DNA of 64,000 nucleotides, taken from NCBI GenBank assembly GCA_951406725.2, contig OX597823.1:101680001-101744000 (forward strand), in the 5' to 3' direction. Source of the stretch: Octopus vulgaris (taxonomy: Eukaryota). Positions 558 through 40,853 of this stretch are shown piece by piece (position 1 is the first letter of the stretch; each line of letters begins with the position of its first letter). A program made the translations under genes and the position numbers. The notes under the pieces are model-generated. The model made no database searches and was not told the DNA's origin. It saw nothing but the letters and a program-made list of their open reading frames with translations.

Positions 558-1640
558 CTAGTTATCCAGTTCTTCTCCGAACCAGACCCCGAGCAACTTA
601 ACCGGGCCGTCTGTCCAGCGTCCCACGACGGAGGTACTGGTGGACGGCATGGGCTTGCTTCTCCAGGTGCCGAGCCGCAAGCCCACTGACTTTTCCCGGT
701 TGATTTTTGCTCCTGTCACCGTTTCGTAGTCTTTTAGTGTTTCGCCGACCCGCTCGATGTGCGCGTGGCTTGACACTATGACGGTGACGTCGTCCGCGTA
801 TGCAGACACGCTCGTCCCGCATCCTAATTCTCGCGGGATGCCCCTCAGAGTCGCCAGCTTCCGCAGTAGTGGCTCAAGAGTCAATACGTATAGAAGCGCC
901 GAGAGGGGGCATCCCTGACGGACCGAACGTGCAATGTCGAAAGGTCTCGATAGATGTCCATTTACGCGAATTACCGAACGTATGCCTCTGTACAAGGCAG
1001 CTATCCAGCCGCGGAAGACGGGACCGAAACCAGCCGCTCTCAGGACTGCCTCCAAGTATCGATGGTCTACCCTATCAAAGGCTTTCGATTGATCCAAGTT
1101 GATCAGTGCCCCACCCATGCCAGGTTCGTTAACTACCCTGTCTATGATGTAGCGCATCAGATGGAGGTTGTCATGGATGCTCCGGCCCGGCACGGCGCAC
1201 GTTTGTGCGTTGTCGACCAGTTTCTCGATGACAAGCGCCAACCTCTTGGCTAACACCTTTGTCAAAATTTTCAGGTCTGCATTGAGCAGTGTGATTGGTC
1301 TAAAGTTATCTATAATGTTTCCCTTGTTTGGATCTTTCTTCAGCAGAGTTACAGCTCCTCGACTCACAAAACCGGGTATGCTCCCGTTTTGCTGCCAGTT
1401 GCAGTATACCGCTGCCAAGACGTCTCCAAACAAGTCTGGCATACAATTGTAAAACTCGTAGGGTAGACCATCCAAACCCGGTGATTTGTCCCTCGAGCAT
1501 TCTGCCATCGCTTCCTGCACTTCCGCCGCCGTGATGGCACCTTCGCAGCAACCTGCCTTTCTTGTCGAGAGTCGTGGCAGGCTATGTAGGTAGGCACTGA
1601 AGTCCACCCTACGTTCTTGCCCTCCACTCGTCCCGAACAG
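558..1640 (-). pseudogene. LINE ORF2 reverse transcriptase domain
   Basis: KSPGLDGLPYEFY, FRPITLLNADLKIL, LDQSKAFDRVDH, VRQGCPLS, AYADDVT, KLLGVWF; interrupted at ~560-580 by a deletion plus templated insertion. Confidence 0.93.
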
Positions 1641-2849
1641 TCAGGCAAAATGCTGCTGAAAGGCCTCACACATTTTACTTGGCTCGAGCAATTCGCGCCC
1701 CTGTTCATCTACCAGGGACCGAATGGTGGCTTTGTTGCCCTGTTGCGCCTCTGCCACCCGGGCCTCTCTCGCGGCTCCAACACCTTCGTTCCTTAGAGCA
1801 CGCATCCTAGCTCTGACAGCACATCCTTCGTGTTTGGCGTTGAAGTGTTGGTCGAGGGCCAACCTCGCCGCCAAAACGTCGGATGCGATGCCGCTTCTAA
1901 TTGCCTCTTCTAGCTTCTTAACTAGCTCACCCTCTACTCTATTTCTATCTATGGCTAGTGCTTTGCTGTACCTAATCGCTTCTGCTTTTACTGCTCTCTT
2001 GAGGGCAAACCACCATTTGTTGTTGATGATGGCTCCCGTCAAAGCCCTCTTTACTAGTGTGCTAATCCGGTCTCTGAAAACTTGTCTGGACGGGAATGAT
2101 GCGTTCAGTTTCCAGTACCCAGGACCCTGTCTATGTGCCTTATCTAAGTCTAGCGTACACGTCACCAATTTGTGATCCGTGTAGCTGACTGTGTGGAATT
2201 GTGGACATCCTAAGTTATCCTTGTCTACTGTCCTACACAGTATCCTATCTAGATACGATCTCGACGACCCACTGCGGTTGCTCCATGTCCACGTTGGTGC
2301 ATTTGGGTGGTCGAGTCGGTACCTGTCAGACAGTTGGAATCGTCTGAGCAGGTTTCTGAGGCATTTGCATCCCCTTCTGTTTTTGTCTCTCCCCACGTAG
2401 TCTAGATGTGTGTCCAAGGTAGCATTCCAATCCCCCACTAAAAGTAAAGGACGAGACGTTCCCAGGAATACTTCTAGACGTCGAAAGAAATCCGGCCGAC
2501 CTGTTAAAGGCGGTGCGTAGACTGATACGAGTCGAAAAGCGCACCCATTGCTGCCGTCGACATCCAGAACGATCAGTCTACCCTCCGGGTCTACGAATAT
2601 CTTGACTTCGAGATCCAGGCTCTTGTGAAAAAGTACCGCGGTGCCACTACCACCCATCCTCGGCAGACAGGGAGCGAAATAAATGTTAAACTGTCCGCCA
2701 AACATGGACTTTAGGGCCCGTGGCTCGTGGAGTCTGGTCTCACTTATGGCTATGATTCCCAAATCATGTGACTTGATGTCATTTAGGAGGTATCCTTGTT
2801 TCCAAGGAGACCCCAAGCCACGCGCATTCACACAACCAATCTTGACCAT
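1641..2849 (-). pseudogene. LINE ORF2 N-terminal part: apurinic-like (APE) endonuclease, ended by a premature TGA
   Basis: Motifs NARGL, ISETR, SVYAP, GDWNA, SYLDRIL, TDHKLV, PGYWKLN. The stop at 1641-1643 is in frame with the downstream RT ORF (FQQHFA*LFGT). Confidence 0.92.
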
Positions 2850-2899
2850 GATTCTATTGGGGTGTGTGCTTTAAAGCACAAAAAGGAAAGTACAGAGAG

Positions 2900-3325
2900 T
2901 TACTTACTTGTGTCGAAAGTTTTGGCTTCCTCGTTCTTTGATGTGTCTTCGAGGAGGTTTTTATAAAGTTTTTGGGACAGATATTTTTGAAAACCCCCTA
3001 CAGCATTTGGGAAGAGGGCTTTGAGTTTGTGGTGTTGTGTTTGTGTGATGTGTAGTATTTTGATGTGTTTGGGTGGTGTAGTGCGTGGATGATTGCTATT
3101 TTTAAAGTCATCTTCACAAATGTTTGTGTAGCCTGTGATGTACTCCATTAGTTTGGAGTCTTTGGTGTCTATCGCTGATAGCATTGTGTGTGTTTTTGTG
3201 GTGTTGGTGCTTGTTTGGTTGTGTATGGAGTTTTCAGGGTTCAGGTATCTCCCTGCTTTGGTTGCGATTTCTTGTTTGGTTTTTCTTGATCTTTTTCTTT
3301 TACTATTTCTTTTGCTATTTGCCAT
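2900..3325 (-). CDS. Probable frameshifted C-terminus of ORF1 (or a small overlapping ORF)
   Basis: 141-aa ORF overlapping the end of ORF1 in another frame and ending 50 nt before the ORF2 ATG; basic KRNSKRKRSRK stretch. Confidence 0.5.
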   Translation of the reverse strand: MANSKRNSKRKRSRKTKQEIATKAGRYLNPENSIHNQTSTNTTKTHTMLSAIDTKDSKLMEYITGYTNICEDDFKNSNHPRTTPPKHIKILHITQTQHHKLKALFPNAVGGFQKYLSQKLYKNLLEDTSKNEEAKTFDTSK

Positions 3326-4612
3326 TCTGTCGAACTTTCATCGTTAGATGAAAAGTCTGACGAATCAGCAGGGGGTAAGGGTAAAGCGTCTGGGTCTGTT
3401 TGTGCGGTTGTAGATATTGTTGTGGTGCGCGGGGAGGGTGTTGCTGGGGGGTTTGTTGTGGTTATTGTCTCGCCTACATCCTTGGTGCTTGTCTTCTTCG
3501 TTGTTATTCTTGGTGTTGGAATTGGTTTATTTGTTGTTGGTGGTGATGATTCTGTTCTTGGCGCTGGTGTTGGTGTTGTTTGGTTGGGTTGGCTTGTTCT
3601 TTGTTGTTTTTCATGCATTTCTGCATACAGCTTCTTGACTAGCTGTCCATATTGTGGTGTGGGCAATAATGCTGGCTTTTGTGATTTTTCCTGTGGCTGT
3701 TGTTGTTGTTGTAATTTAGCGGCAGATTTGCACTCCTTTTTGAGGTGTGCCTCACTGCCACATGTATAGCATCGTGGCCTTCTGCCCTCGACTACTACGT
3801 ATAACTTGCGGCCATCCTCAAGATGTACGTGGGTGGGAATTTTATTGATGTCATCTTGACTTATGTGGAAGAGGAACTCCATTCTCTTTCCCAGCCAGTC
3901 CTTGTTTTTCGAAACACCGATATCTAGGATGTTTAAGTCCTCCATTTCGGATGTTAAGGCGGATGTTATCCACAGTGTTGTTGTTACTTGGGGGACATTA
4001 TTGACAATGACCTTCGTCACCTTCTGGCCAAGGTAACTCGGTGTCATCGTCAGTTCATCAGAATGAAGGGTTATCGTTGAGAATTTCTTCGCCAACTCTT
4101 CATTCTGAAAAACCACCTGTACGCGGGCGAACTTGTTCGCCCAAGTCACAAAATCCTTGAATCCCCAAAGTAGGCACTTTTCTATTTTGTCTGTGCTTGC
4201 CTTTTCTGGACTTTTAGTTTTTTTATTTGTGATTTTACATACAATTGTCTTCTTTTTCTCCTCATTCAGTATGTGTTGTGATATGTGTAAGAGTATTTTG
4301 CCGTTCTCATTGGTGATAATGTTTCTGCAATCTTTTATTTGTTGTGTAGTAAACGAAACTTTTGTTACTTTTTCTTTTATCGCCTCGGCGAAGTTTGTTG
4401 TTGTTTTGTTATTGTTGTTACTGCCGGTGGTGTTGATGTTGATGGCAGGGGTTTGGGTTGTAGGTTTGTGGTTGCTGATTATGCAACTAGCAAGGGGTGG
4501 AAAATTGTCTGCGTAATTTAGTCCTGCATTAGCGCAAATTTCGGCATTTCGTTTGGTTGTCGTTGTTATTTTTTCACTTGTTGGTGATGGAGTGAGCAGT
4601 GGTTGAAGGGAA

Positions 4613-4665
<53 letters not shown>

Positions 4666-4812
4666 ATTGTCGTTCTTGGTGACGGCGGTGGTGTTAGTGG
4701 TATTAGTAGCATTGACGGCACGGTCTTTGGTGGCGGTGATGGTGATGTTGGTATTGTTATTGGTGGCGATGTCTTTAGCAGGGATAGCAGTTTTAGTAGC
4801 AGATGCTGCCAT
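3241..4812 (-). CDS. LINE ORF1 (gag-like nucleic-acid-binding protein, Tx1 type)
   Basis: 523-aa ORF with zinc knuckle CYTCGSEAHLKKEC (CX2CX4HX4C) preceded by VVVEGRRPR and an RRM-like region. It has low-complexity N/T/P-rich flanks and lies upstream of ORF2. Confidence 0.85.
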
Positions 4813-5365
4813 GGTGTTGTTGTCGGTGTTGGTGGTGGACTCACTGGTGGTGTTGACGGTGCTTGGCCTTGCGACCTTTGTTTTGTATTTGTTGCTGTTG
4901 TCGATGCTGATGGTGGTGGTGGTGGTGGTGGTGGTGAAAGCGGTGGTGGTAACAGTAGTATTCTCTTTGTTGTTCTTGTTAGTGGTGGTAGTGGTGACAG
5001 GGTTTTTAACTACAAGTGGTTGCAGCGTTCATTGCAAATTCATTGATGATTTCACCTTCCGTGCATAAATTCTTTTTTTCTCCTAGCGTTTCCAGTCTAG
5101 GAGAAAGCTGGTCGATAGAGGAACGCGACCATCGTTCTAAAATACAATTTCTTGACATTTTCAAAATATCGAAAAGGAAATTACACAAATTAAATAGGAC
5201 TGAAACTGCCCCTAGGGGCGAATTCCTCCCTTGGAAAAGCACTCAAACGAAAGTTGGGTGCCTTACACAACTTATTTACAAAAATGTACACAAAAATTGG
5301 CCTATAAATAGTCAAAATAAACGATTACCTTCGGAGTCGAAGTGACATCACGTCCGTCAATAAAC

Positions 5366-14809: not shown

Positions 14810-15220
14810 TATTACTTTATTGCCCACAAGGGGTTAATAGATGGGACAAATAAGGACAGATAAATGGATCAAGTCGAATACATCGACCCCTCAGCGTAAC
14901 TGGTACTTAATTTATCGACCCCGAAAGGATGAAAGGCAAAGTCGACCTCGGCGGAATTTGAACTCAGAACATAAAGATGGACAAAATACCTATTTTTTTA
15001 CTACCCACAAGGGGCTAAACACAGGGGACAAACAAGGACAGACAAACGGATTAAGTCGATAATATCGACCCCAGTGCGTAACTGGTACTTATTTAATCGA
15101 CCCCGAAAGGATGAAAGGCAAAGTCGACCTCGGCGGAATTTGAACTCAGAACGTAGCGGAAGACGAAATACCGCTAAGCATTTCGCCCGGCGTGCTAACG
15201 ACTCTGCCAGCTCGCCGCCC
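14810..15220 (-). mobile_element. SINE family B dimer (full unit plus partial unit, both with LINE-like tail) with target-site duplication
   Basis: Two CGACCCCGAAAGGATGAAAGGCAAAGTCGACCTCGGCGGAATTTGAACTCAGAAC blocks; flanked by the direct repeat TATTTGATTATAGTATTTGATTAT (14786-14809 and 15221-15244). Confidence 0.88.
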
Positions 15221-31336: not shown

Positions 31337-31545
31337 AAATAGGTTCAGTAAAATTTAGATTCAGTTGAATATGGTACTTAAGTTAAAGGCACCAGAATTT
31401 ACTATGGTATTATCCATATAATTCAAAATGAGGTGATTACAATCAAAATAAGCAACAAGGATATCCAGAGGTAATGCAGAACAATCGTCGCATGAAACGA
31501 TCGTACTGCATTACCTCTGGATATCTTTGTTGCTTATTTTGATTA

Positions 31546-31546
<1 letters not shown>
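31337..31546. mobile_element. Fold-back element in (TA)n with the 3' half of a hammerhead motif
   Basis: Arms 31441-31488 and 31497-31544; GAAA-CGATCG-TA (palindromic stem III plus GUA site) at 31494-31505; tail 31337-31440. Confidence 0.8.
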
Positions 31547-31587
<41 letters not shown>

Positions 31588-31630
31588 TAAATAAATGGAG
31601 TTGAACGGAGATGTTATTAAAATTCTTTTA

Positions 31631-31713
31631 CTTTCGACATATGTTTCGAAGACAACATTGGTTTTATTCAAAAGGATTAAAGGGTGTAAAATGCAATCTT
31701 CCCATCAGGAAAG
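31631..31713 (-). ncRNA. Type-I hammerhead ribozyme, inverted twin with A9>G core change
   Basis: Minus strand CTTTC-CTGATGG-GAAGA...TCTTC-GAAA-CATATG-TC-GAAAG. Confidence 0.75.
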
Positions 31714-31815
31714 ACGTCGAATCTACTAACGGTTTTTAAAAATACTTAACGTTCTGTTTATCATTTAGGCAGTCATCGTAATTGTTATAATGTCTTGTTG
31801 AGATAAGCTCTCTTT

Positions 31816-31898
31816 CTTTCCTGATGAGAAGATTGCATTTTACACCGTTTATTCCTTTGGAATAAAACCAATGTTGTCTTCGAAACATATGTCGAAAG
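31816..31898 (+). ncRNA. Type-I hammerhead ribozyme, canonical core
   Basis: CTTTC-CTGATGA-GAAGA...TCTTC-GAAA-CATATG-TC^GAAAG: 5-bp stem I, intact CUGAUGA/GAAA core, 5-bp stem II base, palindromic stem III, GUC cleavage site after 31893. Confidence 0.88.
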
Positions 31899-32092
31899 TA
31901 AAAGAATTTTAAAAACATCTCCGTTCAACTCCATTTATTTACGTATACTATACAAATTACTGCACATTAACCCGGAGTTTCTACCATTGAATAGGTCGCT
32001 TCATCCGTATTACTTGCGTGAATTTTGCTACCCCGGTAACTGTTTATTGAATTTTCCATGTTAACGGTAAACAAATGATAATTCATTCATCC

Positions 32093-32152
<60 letters not shown>

Positions 32153-32609
32153 GCACACATACATAAGTGTAATTATATGCATATACACCGTTATGTGTAT
32201 ACATATATGTTTGTGAGTATGTAAGTGTGTGTGTGTGTATGTGTGCAGTCAGCAGTATCAAGGACAATACGGCTGTGGGCATGACAAGTGATGCTGTAAA
32301 TAATGTATATAACGTGTGATTATCAATGTATGGGTGCAAACATTGGGCCCTGGCGATGCTTCTGTGATAGCGAAAGAAGACGTGTTTGTTTACAGTATAA
32401 TTGGTAGGAGTGTTATGTATATATTACAGATATTGCATTTCATCAGCTTTGAAGTGATAAGCCGTTGAACTGATCCCCGTTGGGAACTGATCTCATGGAA
32501 ATGTATATATAATACCGAATTAAATATCAAAAATCTTGTTGACAGCTCTCGGCTGTCCATGTTGCACGCATTGCTGCAATGATTAAATAAACGCATACAT
32601 ACATATATG

Positions 32610-34610: not shown

Positions 34611-35105
34611 TAAAACTTTGAAGTGGTTGCTTTCTTTGCAAGAAAAAGCAGCCAAACCGTCCTCAAATCACATACTAAAAAAAGGAAATTAAGAGAAAGT
34701 AAAGACAGGCTCAATAATGTAATCTTAGACATCCCTAGAAATGCATGGTGGTCACGGATGGAACAGTTTCGATCATAGAGCTGCTTGATCAGTCAAATAA
34801 CTAAATGAATGAGTAAAAGACATAATTAGTAAACTAATTCGTAAATTAACATTTAAAATACAAACAAGTAATCATGAACACACGGATCCATTTAGTTCAG
34901 GATAAATGCTCTTTTCACGTTCCAACATATACCCAAACCAACTCCTACAACCGCTAGAACACCCACCATCAACAGTCACATTACAGTCATGTCAGCATTT
35001 TCACTCACTTTCGCATAACAATCAACTGTTGACATAAATTCAGTAGCGATTATTATAAACGTTATGTAATATCTAAAGAAGATTGCGATAAAAAATTTGG
35101 AGGTA

Positions 35106-35204
35106 CGGCGGTACATATTCTAAAATTGGAACACTACAGAGAAGTTTGCCGTGGCCTCTGCGCAAGGATGACACGCAAATTCGTGAAGCGTTCCATATTT
35201 TTTT
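35106..35204 (+). pseudogene. U6: U6 snRNA pseudogene (5' stem-loop missing, AGC triad mutated)
   Basis: ACATATTCTAAAATTGGAACACTACAGAGAAGTTTGCCGTGGCCTCTGCGCAAGGATGACACGCAAATTCGTGAAGCGTTCCATATTTTTTT matches metazoan U6; the ACAGAGA box is intact and the 3' half is identical. Confidence 0.93.
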
Positions 35205-39971: not shown

Positions 39972-40066
39972 TATATATATATATATATATACATATATAC
40001 GTATATATATAATTTCCGATGCTGCGGATATAATACCATTCTTATTTTCTCTATTTTTCCCTATTT

Positions 40067-40122
40067 GTCTTTGATGTCGGAATATCCCATACTCGGGGAA
40101 ATCCCAGAAACAGCTGTAAGGA
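40067..40122 (+). ncRNA. Degenerate type-I hammerhead within element 40010-40348
   Basis: GTCT-TTGATGT-CGG...CCA-GAAA-CAGCTG-TA-AGGA; homologous to the intact copy at 40594-40649. Confidence 0.6.
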
Positions 40123-40359
40123 TTTGAATTTTTTTTTCTAATAATAATATTGTATACAACTTGAGATGTTTGCCTTGCCTTAATGTTTGTTGTCCTCTTT
40201 AACGATTATATATCCGGTGCGTCGGAAATCTGCAATGGCTCCATAACTACCATCTCGGCTATAACCTTGGAGCCCTAGTAATCCATTACAGCACTTACCT
40301 AACATACTTAATTGTTTAGATCATCTGTGAACTAAATCCCCATACTTTGTGTGTGTGTG

Positions 40360-40428
<69 letters not shown>

Positions 40429-40593
40429 ATGAAATGGATAAATGAATTATCTTGTTACGGATTATTCAAAATTTAACCGATACCTGTGTAGCAAAAATCA
40501 CACCATATATATATAATAGTTATAGAGGACAACAAACATTAAGGCAAGGTAAACATATCAAGTCATATACCTTATTATTGGAAAAAATTCAAA

Positions 40594-40649
40594 GTCTTAC
40601 AGTTGTTTCTGGGATATCCCAGAGTATGGGAAATTCCATCATCAGAGAC
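40594..40649 (-). ncRNA. Type-I hammerhead ribozyme, canonical core, within element 40430-40856
   Basis: Minus strand GTCT-CTGATGA-TGG(AATTTCCCATACTCTGGGATATC)CCA-GAAA-CAACTG-TA^AGAC. Confidence 0.82.
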
Positions 40650-40853
40650 AAATAGGGAAAATGAGAAAGGAATAGATTACTGAAATGATGACATAGCGGA
40701 CAGAAGTAAGGGAATATGATGAAGAGAGAGAAGGAAAAGAAGCGTAAAATTTCATTGTTCAACTTTCTGATGTTGTATAAATAAGTGCATAAGTCCTTAT
40801 GTGCAATCCTGCGTAGATCCATGTGAGTAAAAGTCCTGTAAGTCCCCATACTT

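What the first reader, a model, noticed from the sequence alone, without database searches (positions are those of the whole stretch)
31585..32097. Best intact example: twin hammerheads on opposite strands with an extended stem II
Seen: a canonical core, 5-bp stems I and II, a ~44-nt insertion in stem II with an internal hairpin (TTTATTCC-TTT-GGAATAAA), a palindromic ACATATGT stem III and a GUC site. The antisense twin differs at A9. This is the strongest candidate for a catalytically active ribozyme in the window.
Basis: partly seen in the sequence, partly recalled or inferred. Interest (0 to 1): 0.75.

Follow-up and report, generated by a model that had tools for sequence, protein, structure and literature searches.

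The report
Inverted Penelope end with long-armed hammerheads
This is the cut-off tail end of a common ribozyme-carrying jumping gene, present twice head-to-head in a known layout, so the twin is ordinary and is predicted to pair up and silence itself; the one unusual part is a long side arm on the ribozyme, shared by thousands of related motifs in this genome, whose cutting and purpose are untested.

Summary
Both hammerhead cores are real. They sit in a 133-bp inverted repeat formed by the 3' end of a Penelope-like retroelement (Hydra-type motifs) inserted in (TA)n: a long arm (31713-32096, +) and an inverted short arm (31586-31714, -). This layout is published. The + ribozyme equals the family majority; the - copy has A9G plus three hairpin-breaking changes. 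On opposite strands they cannot form a cis dimer, and read-through RNA is predicted to fold arm-on-arm (-225 kcal/mol) with no ribozyme pairs. The 54-nt stem II is family-wide, not a local insertion: 526 exact matches, and a looser motif with 30-60-nt arms has 4387 (control 4), while published Hydra hammerheads have 3-10-nt loops. Other findings: two fixed 3' ends 153 nt apart, one of each in 42 of 43 classifiable twins; the Hydra zinc-finger linker is missing, yet 158 of 185 ends abut (TA)n. No pile-up of copies starting at the cut site; cleavage untested. The scan already noted long-stem-II twins and two-armed insertions on other DNA of this genome. Verdict: known kind of element, modest new variant.

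The parts
31544..31585 (.). Left half of the (TA)n target
   Evidence: 158 of 185 family ends abut (TA)4
31586..31714 (-). Short arm: inverted, 5'-truncated copy of the element's 3' end, stopping at the short terminus (equivalent to 31943)
31631..31713 (-). Damaged hammerhead twin: A9G at 31702, three changes in the distal hairpin, C17 at 31636
   Evidence: G at A9 in 0 of 103 other copies
31713..31714 (.). Inversion junction, 2-nt overlap (GA) shared by both arms
31713..32096 (+). Long arm: 5'-truncated 3' end (pseudo-LTR plus tail) of a Hydra-type Penelope-like element
   Evidence: 92-94% identity to dispersed copies whose upstream DNA encodes RT and C-terminal GIY-YIG
31816..31898 (+). Type I hammerhead equal to the family majority; predicted cut after C31893
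31828..31881 (+). 54-nt stem II arm: 11-bp proximal helix, 8x3 internal loop, 8-bp terminal hairpin
31885..31892 (+). Palindromic stem III (ACATATGT); self-duplex -7.0 kcal/mol, monomer stem III costs +0.6
   Evidence: centre changes TA to CG keeping the palindrome
31944..32096 (+). 153-nt tail between the two fixed termini; in full-length relatives it is 5' leader ending about 50 nt before the ORF start
   Evidence: L232, L223
32097..32149 (.). Right half of the (TA)n target

Best explanation
The stretch is the non-coding 3' end of a Penelope-like retroelement with Hydra-clade motifs, present as two head-to-head arms inside a (TA)n run, likely laid down in one insertion. Shown: family identity, two fixed 3' ends 153 nt apart, one end of each kind per twin, TA targets, decay of the left copy. 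Inferred mechanism: the element's RT-endonuclease nicked both strands of the TA run, each 3'-OH primed reverse transcription at one of two internal start sites on uncleaved element RNA (50 and 203 nt past the cut site), both cDNAs stopped early and were joined through a 2-nt overlap. The hammerhead belongs to the parent element, where tandem same-strand copies would pair their palindromic stems III and cut as a dimer, likely helped by the element's protein. At this locus it is likely silent, because spanning RNA would fold arm-on-arm. The long stem II is an inherited family trait kept as a paired arm.
For: Dispersed family: 3140 first-look candidates, 40 scored; upstream RT and EN ORFs; a full-length relative with direct pLTRs around a 778-aa frame (L232) and same-strand tandem units (L222-L224). 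Ends: of 110 distinct copies 62 long, 35 short, 13 other. Twins: of 59, 42 long+short, 1 long+long, 0 short+short, 16 with one end unclassifiable. Both arms carry C31921, seen in 1 of 114 other copies. Spanning RNA: -225/-228 kcal/mol, pair probability 0.0 for the 11 hammerhead pairs tested, against 0.84-0.96 in 31800-31920 alone. Published precedent for inverted pLTR with a tail on one arm (PMC3846280, PMC8557442), opposite-strand twin hammerheads (PMC4209133; Penelope-13_HM) and two RT start sites with both strands extended (PMC11167929).
Against: Clade call rests on motifs and by-eye comparison, with no tree; Pfam and PDB gave no significant hit, and one Hydra feature (CxCx5C linker) is absent. 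The shared C31921 could come from conversion between arms. The TA target hides any duplication. A promoter inside 31715-31810 could give an RNA without the left arm (stem pair probabilities 0.39-0.65). PMC3846280 favours self-priming on antisense RNA instead. Two-site priming is shown only for a Poseidon element with a 30-40-nt tail.
Confidence: 0.88

Rival explanations
1. Same element, but the inversion arose by fold-back or self-priming on an antisense template, or by template switching after one priming event, not by priming from both target strands.
For: Proposed in PMC3846280 (passages). Some twins have near-palindromic junctions (L241, L245).
Against: It does not by itself explain why the arms end at two different fixed sites in 42 of 43 classifiable twins, each against TA.
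Confidence: 0.2
2. The locus is a working ribozyme device: the + hammerhead is transcribed from inside the long arm and cleaves, with the antisense twin as a switch or source of double-stranded RNA.
For: The + copy has no difference from the majority of 29 copies over 31807-31912; the short transcript is predicted to fold correctly.
Against: Left copy has four private damaging changes; arms differ at 6 inner positions; twins are a routine product of this family (59 in 171 loci with a hit); no same-strand partner in the window.
Confidence: 0.05
3. It is a non-autonomous retrozyme or MITE-like unit with terminal inverted repeats.
For: No coding sequence here; inverted ends; earlier scan notes describe long-stem-II retrozymes in this genome (not checked here).
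Against: The unit is collinear with the 3' end of RT-EN coding copies at 92-94%; inner break points vary between copies; arms are unequal; no short tandem monomers here.
Confidence: 0.03

Closest known systems
Hydra-clade Penelope-like elements (Craig et al. 2021, PMC8557442; passages and supplement parts 1, 2, 52, 53 plus two searches read)
   Same: C-terminal GIY-YIG, DKT, R-x-R-W near the N-terminus, no CCHH, CxxC and CxH around the conserved E and N, (TA)n targets, type I hammerhead with palindromic stem III; Penelope-13_HM has a hammerhead on each strand
   Different: No CxCx5C linker (53-185-aa Asn-rich spacer instead); 54-nt stem II against 3-10-nt loops on 3-7-bp stems in all listed Hydra motifs; 153-nt tail against 30-40 bp; different family from Hydra-1_Obim
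Metazoan PLE hammerheads (Cervera and de la Pena 2014, PMC4209133; parts 1-2 of 4 read)
   Same: Type I, short stem I, G10.1-C11.1, palindromic helix III, dimer design, opposite-strand pairs 100-700 bp apart
   Different: Helix II there is 6-8 bp; here about 19 bp in two segments; no extra base between 9 and 10.1
PAc Poseidon element (Frangieh et al. 2024, PMC11167929; parts 1-2 of 4 read)
   Same: Two internal RT start sites bounding the tail, both target strands extended, uncleaved RNA as template
   Different: Other clade; start sites here lie in the leader before the ORF and are 153 nt apart
Adineta vaga Penelope insertions (PMC3846280; passages read)
   Same: Inverted pLTR, tail on one arm, microhomology junctions, Asn-rich inserts between RT and EN
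   Different: 31-bp tail; visible target duplications
Animal non-LTR retrozymes (PMC7229834 passages; bioRxiv 10.64898/2026.07.22.740005 part 1 of 5)
   Same: Type I hammerhead, PLE link
   Different: Those are tandem non-coding monomers; this is a truncated end of a coding element

Membership tests
EN+ Penelope-like element | Single ORF with RT and C-terminal GIY-YIG | tested here: met
   Motifs read in family and sister ORFs of 778-934 aa; no Pfam or PDB support; the window copy itself has no ORF
EN+ Penelope-like element | Pseudo-LTRs, direct or inverted, tail on one end | tested here: met
   Direct in L232 and L222-L224; inverted in 59 twins
EN+ Penelope-like element | Hammerhead in the pLTR | tested here: met
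Hydra clade | DKT in place of DKG | tested here: met
   9 of 10 frames; the tenth starts past that region
Hydra clade | RWK motif near N-terminus | tested here: inconclusive
   RIRWL, not RWK, in 6 of 10 frames; the others are truncated
Hydra clade | No CCHH in EN; CxxC and CxH flanking E and N | tested here: met
Hydra clade | CxCx5C linker before EN | tested here: not met
   0 of 10 frames have CxC in the linker; so filed as Hydra-like, not as a canonical member
Hydra clade | (TA)n insertion | tested here: met
   158 of 185 ends vs 1588 of 20000 random 30-mers
Hydra clade | Placement in RT phylogeny | not tested
   Reference sequences seen only in the paper's supplement; compared by eye
Type I hammerhead ribozyme | Core CUGANGA / GAAA / NUH with three helices, open stem I | tested here: met
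   + copy met; - copy fails at A9. That A9 is needed for catalysis is recalled; one search gave no usable paper
Type I hammerhead ribozyme | Loop 1-loop 2 tertiary contact | tested here: inconclusive
   The tip of a 54-nt arm is unlikely to reach stem I in the canonical way (inference); no substitute contact identified
Type I hammerhead ribozyme | Self-cleavage | not testable with these tools
   No raw RNA reads; genomic proxy negative
Non-LTR retrozyme | Tandem non-coding monomers independent of a coding element | tested here: not met

The most novel reading that the evidence does not exclude
A lineage of Hydra-like Penelope elements uses a long-armed type I hammerhead class (49-60-nt stem II, sequence-free but paired) that standard descriptors and Rfam miss; the arm is a selected module, such as a binding site for the element's RT-EN that licenses dimer cleavage, and these elements target (TA)n without the zinc-finger linker and prime both target strands at two fixed RNA sites 153 nt apart. 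Young sister copies with intact 899-aa frames make all three points testable.
Probability: 0.3. Interest if true: 0.6.

Novelty: new variant of a known kind. Interest (0 to 1): 0.33.

Why it matters
The locus itself matters little. The family adds three usable facts. Thousands of hammerhead motifs with long stem II escape common descriptors, so ribozyme counts in such genomes are likely too low. The strict long+short pairing of twin ends is genomic support for two-site priming of Penelope elements, a mechanism still unresolved. TA targeting without the cysteine linker argues against the idea that this linker directs microsatellite insertion.

Tried and rejected
Rfam at gathering score over the window: only U6; by E-value over 31400-32200: 26 hits, none a hammerhead, all below gathering. 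Pfam and PDB sequences: nothing significant for the ORFs. Expression: no RNA holder listed; contigs of four runs cover the family but cannot show ends, strand or this locus. In vivo cleavage proxy: copies starting at the cut site; 58 rows lacked G16.2 against 1449 with it, about 22 of the 58 by eye are break points within 2 nt (11 of the 30 fetched); a control anchor 10 nt downstream gave about 20 of 31 rows by eye, about 17 independent (its total was not counted). No pile-up; this neither shows nor excludes cleavage. Idea that the long-arm motifs are Naiad half-cores: three stem III motifs were not found in the Craig supplement (line breaks can hide hits) and the flanking ORF pieces found were Hydra-type; dropped. 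Metagenome scan: 1 relative of 594 pattern rows, with an intact CxC linker and no CTGANGA core after the ORF. Lunse et al. 2017 (PMC5785218) was not held; known only from its title and a review. Covariation measures that did not beat shuffles: pairs with double change 6 vs 5.5 (290/500) and pair types 19 vs 22.

Full report
Observation. The window is G000:C10:101680001-101744000 of a 2.8-Gb animal genome. Plus strand: stem I 31816-31820/31894-31898, core 31821-31827, 54 nt between A9 and G12, palindrome 31885-31892, GUC ending at 31893. Minus strand: core from 31708, A9G at 31702, C17 at 31636. They lie in a 133-nt inverted repeat, 95% complementary, 100 nt apart, between two (TA)n runs. Rfam detects neither.

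What it is. 31713-32096 matches dispersed copies at 92-94% (40 of 3140 candidates scored). In those copies the DNA upstream of 31713 continues into a C-terminal GIY-YIG endonuclease and an RT. A relative at 70% has two direct repeats of the unit around a 778-aa frame, whose start lies about 50 nt after the unit's end (L232). A decayed cluster holds same-strand tandem units 3.2-3.7 kb apart (L222-L224). Sister families have intact 899-908-aa frames in many copies. The proteins have DKT, RIRWL, no CCHH, and CxxC and CxH around the conserved E and N, as described for the Hydra clade (PMC8557442, passages). The CxCx5C linker of that clade is absent in 10 of 10 frames and replaced by an Asn-rich spacer. 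Pfam and PDB gave no significant hit and I built no tree, so I call it Hydra-like. L105 holds a motif nearly identical to the published Hydra-1_oBim hammerhead, so the host is likely an octopod (inference).

The twin. Copies end at two fixed places: of 110 distinct copies covering the ribozyme, 62 end at 32096, 35 near 31943 and 13 elsewhere (29 of the loci were picked by the whole unit, which favours long ends). Among 263 loci held, 171 had a hit and 59 distinct head-to-head twins were found: 42 long+short, 1 long+long, 0 short+short, 16 with one end unclassifiable; without L001-L034 the figures are 31, 1, 0 and 12 of 44. 158 of 185 ends abut (TA)4, against 8% of random 30-mers. The window copy fits: short arm left, long arm right, 2-nt overlap at the junction, and a C at 31921 in both arms that only 1 of 114 other copies has. 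The layout is published: inverted pLTR with a tail on one arm (PMC3846280 passages; PMC8557442), hammerhead pairs on opposite strands (PMC4209133 parts 1-2; Penelope-13_HM in supplement S2). Two RT start sites bounding the tail, extension of both target strands, and uncleaved RNA as template were shown for PAc (PMC11167929 parts 1-2). Priming from both strands at two sites is my inference; the tail here is 153 nt, not 30-40.

Activity at this locus. The + ribozyme has no difference from the majority of 29 copies; the left copy has four private changes, A9G in 0 of 103 others. Opposite strands cannot supply the cis dimer that the palindromic stem III calls for (self-duplex -7.0 kcal/mol; monomer stem III +0.6). 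RNA across both arms folds into the long hairpin in either direction (-225, -228 kcal/mol), with probability 0.0 for 11 hammerhead pairs; 31800-31920 alone gives 0.84-0.96 and the long arm alone 0.39-0.65. Published metazoan PLE hammerheads are weak and dimer- or protein-dependent. No RNA evidence was available, and copies do not pile up at the cut site.

The long stem II. It is inherited. The tight pattern has 526 matches against 0. A loose pattern with another stem III and a 30-60-nt spacer has 4387 against 4; with 6-29 nt, 2485 against 10, so short arms thrive too. In the 100 rows listed, 96 by eye keep stem III palindromic where the pattern allowed half to break it. Spacers of unrelated sequence cluster at 49-60 nt and mostly fold as one long irregular hairpin. 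Within the family, ribozyme segments diverge 0.9-2.6% (internal loop 5.7%) against 3.3-4.9% in flanks (copies chosen by BLAST score). In 17 hand-picked copies of related families, the 11-pair proximal helix is 89% paired with 4 pairs changed on both sides, and the named structure gives 90.7% paired cells against 36-52% for slid controls; but the count of such pairs does not beat shuffles (290/500) and most changes trace to one split between two groups. This is suggestive, not proof, of selection. All Hydra hammerheads in supplement S2 of PMC8557442 have loops of 3-10 nt; two spike-moss PLE-X motifs have about 30-nt loops and are marked non-canonical. Paper searches listed nothing describing this arm; Lunse et al. 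2017 was not held, and bioRxiv supplements and Repbase were not seen, so it may be recorded there.

Earlier scan notes, read: e1-9590685 reached the same reading for a similar twin elsewhere and gave the PMC3846280 lead; e1-8666544 and e1-8667016 report long stem II and two fixed ends in non-coding repeats; e1-8670234 prompted the cut-site test, which was negative for this family. A look-up by sequence found nothing.

Verdict. A decayed, ordinary two-armed Penelope-like insertion (0.88). The family's long-armed hammerhead, long tail and missing linker make it a new variant of a known kind. Interest 0.33.

Noticed in passing
window 40055-40213 (+) and 40509-40661 (-): Second head-to-head twin from another family (3081 candidates); hammerhead at 40645-40598 (-) with a 29-nt stem II and a broken palindrome; its tail ends in nearly the same words as this family's.
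   Followed up: partly
window 31340-31547: Another repeat remnant with a 51-bp hairpin (31438-31488/31497-31547) abuts the finding across the TA run; resembles the tail of the L110-L129 family; very high contig depth.
   Followed up: partly
L110-L129 (e.g. L111:1573 +, 1075 -): Young family (93-98% identity, 2792 candidates) with a 60-nt stem II hammerhead, GUA site, often twinned; a DKT-type ORF piece in L118.
   Followed up: partly
L225, L231, L233: Sister family with intact 899-908-aa frames in many copies and a 55-nt stem II; best material for biochemistry.
   Followed up: partly
L222-L224: Cluster of about eight tandem and inverted copies over 25 kb; the hammerhead core printed for L223 is mutated.
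   Followed up: partly
window 35103-35202 (+): U6 snRNA match, 81.8 bits, 5' stem mostly missing; likely a pseudogene.
   Followed up: no
window 558-5028 (-): Non-LTR retrotransposon: gag-like ORF with zinc knuckle, AP endonuclease and RT pieces, interrupted.
   Followed up: no
window 14816-15152: 182-nt unit in 1.9 tandem copies, likely a common SINE-like repeat.
   Followed up: no
L226:1795 and 1235 (-): Two same-strand hammerhead-like motifs 560 nt apart with ACGTACGT palindrome; a possible retrozyme-type tandem.
   Followed up: no
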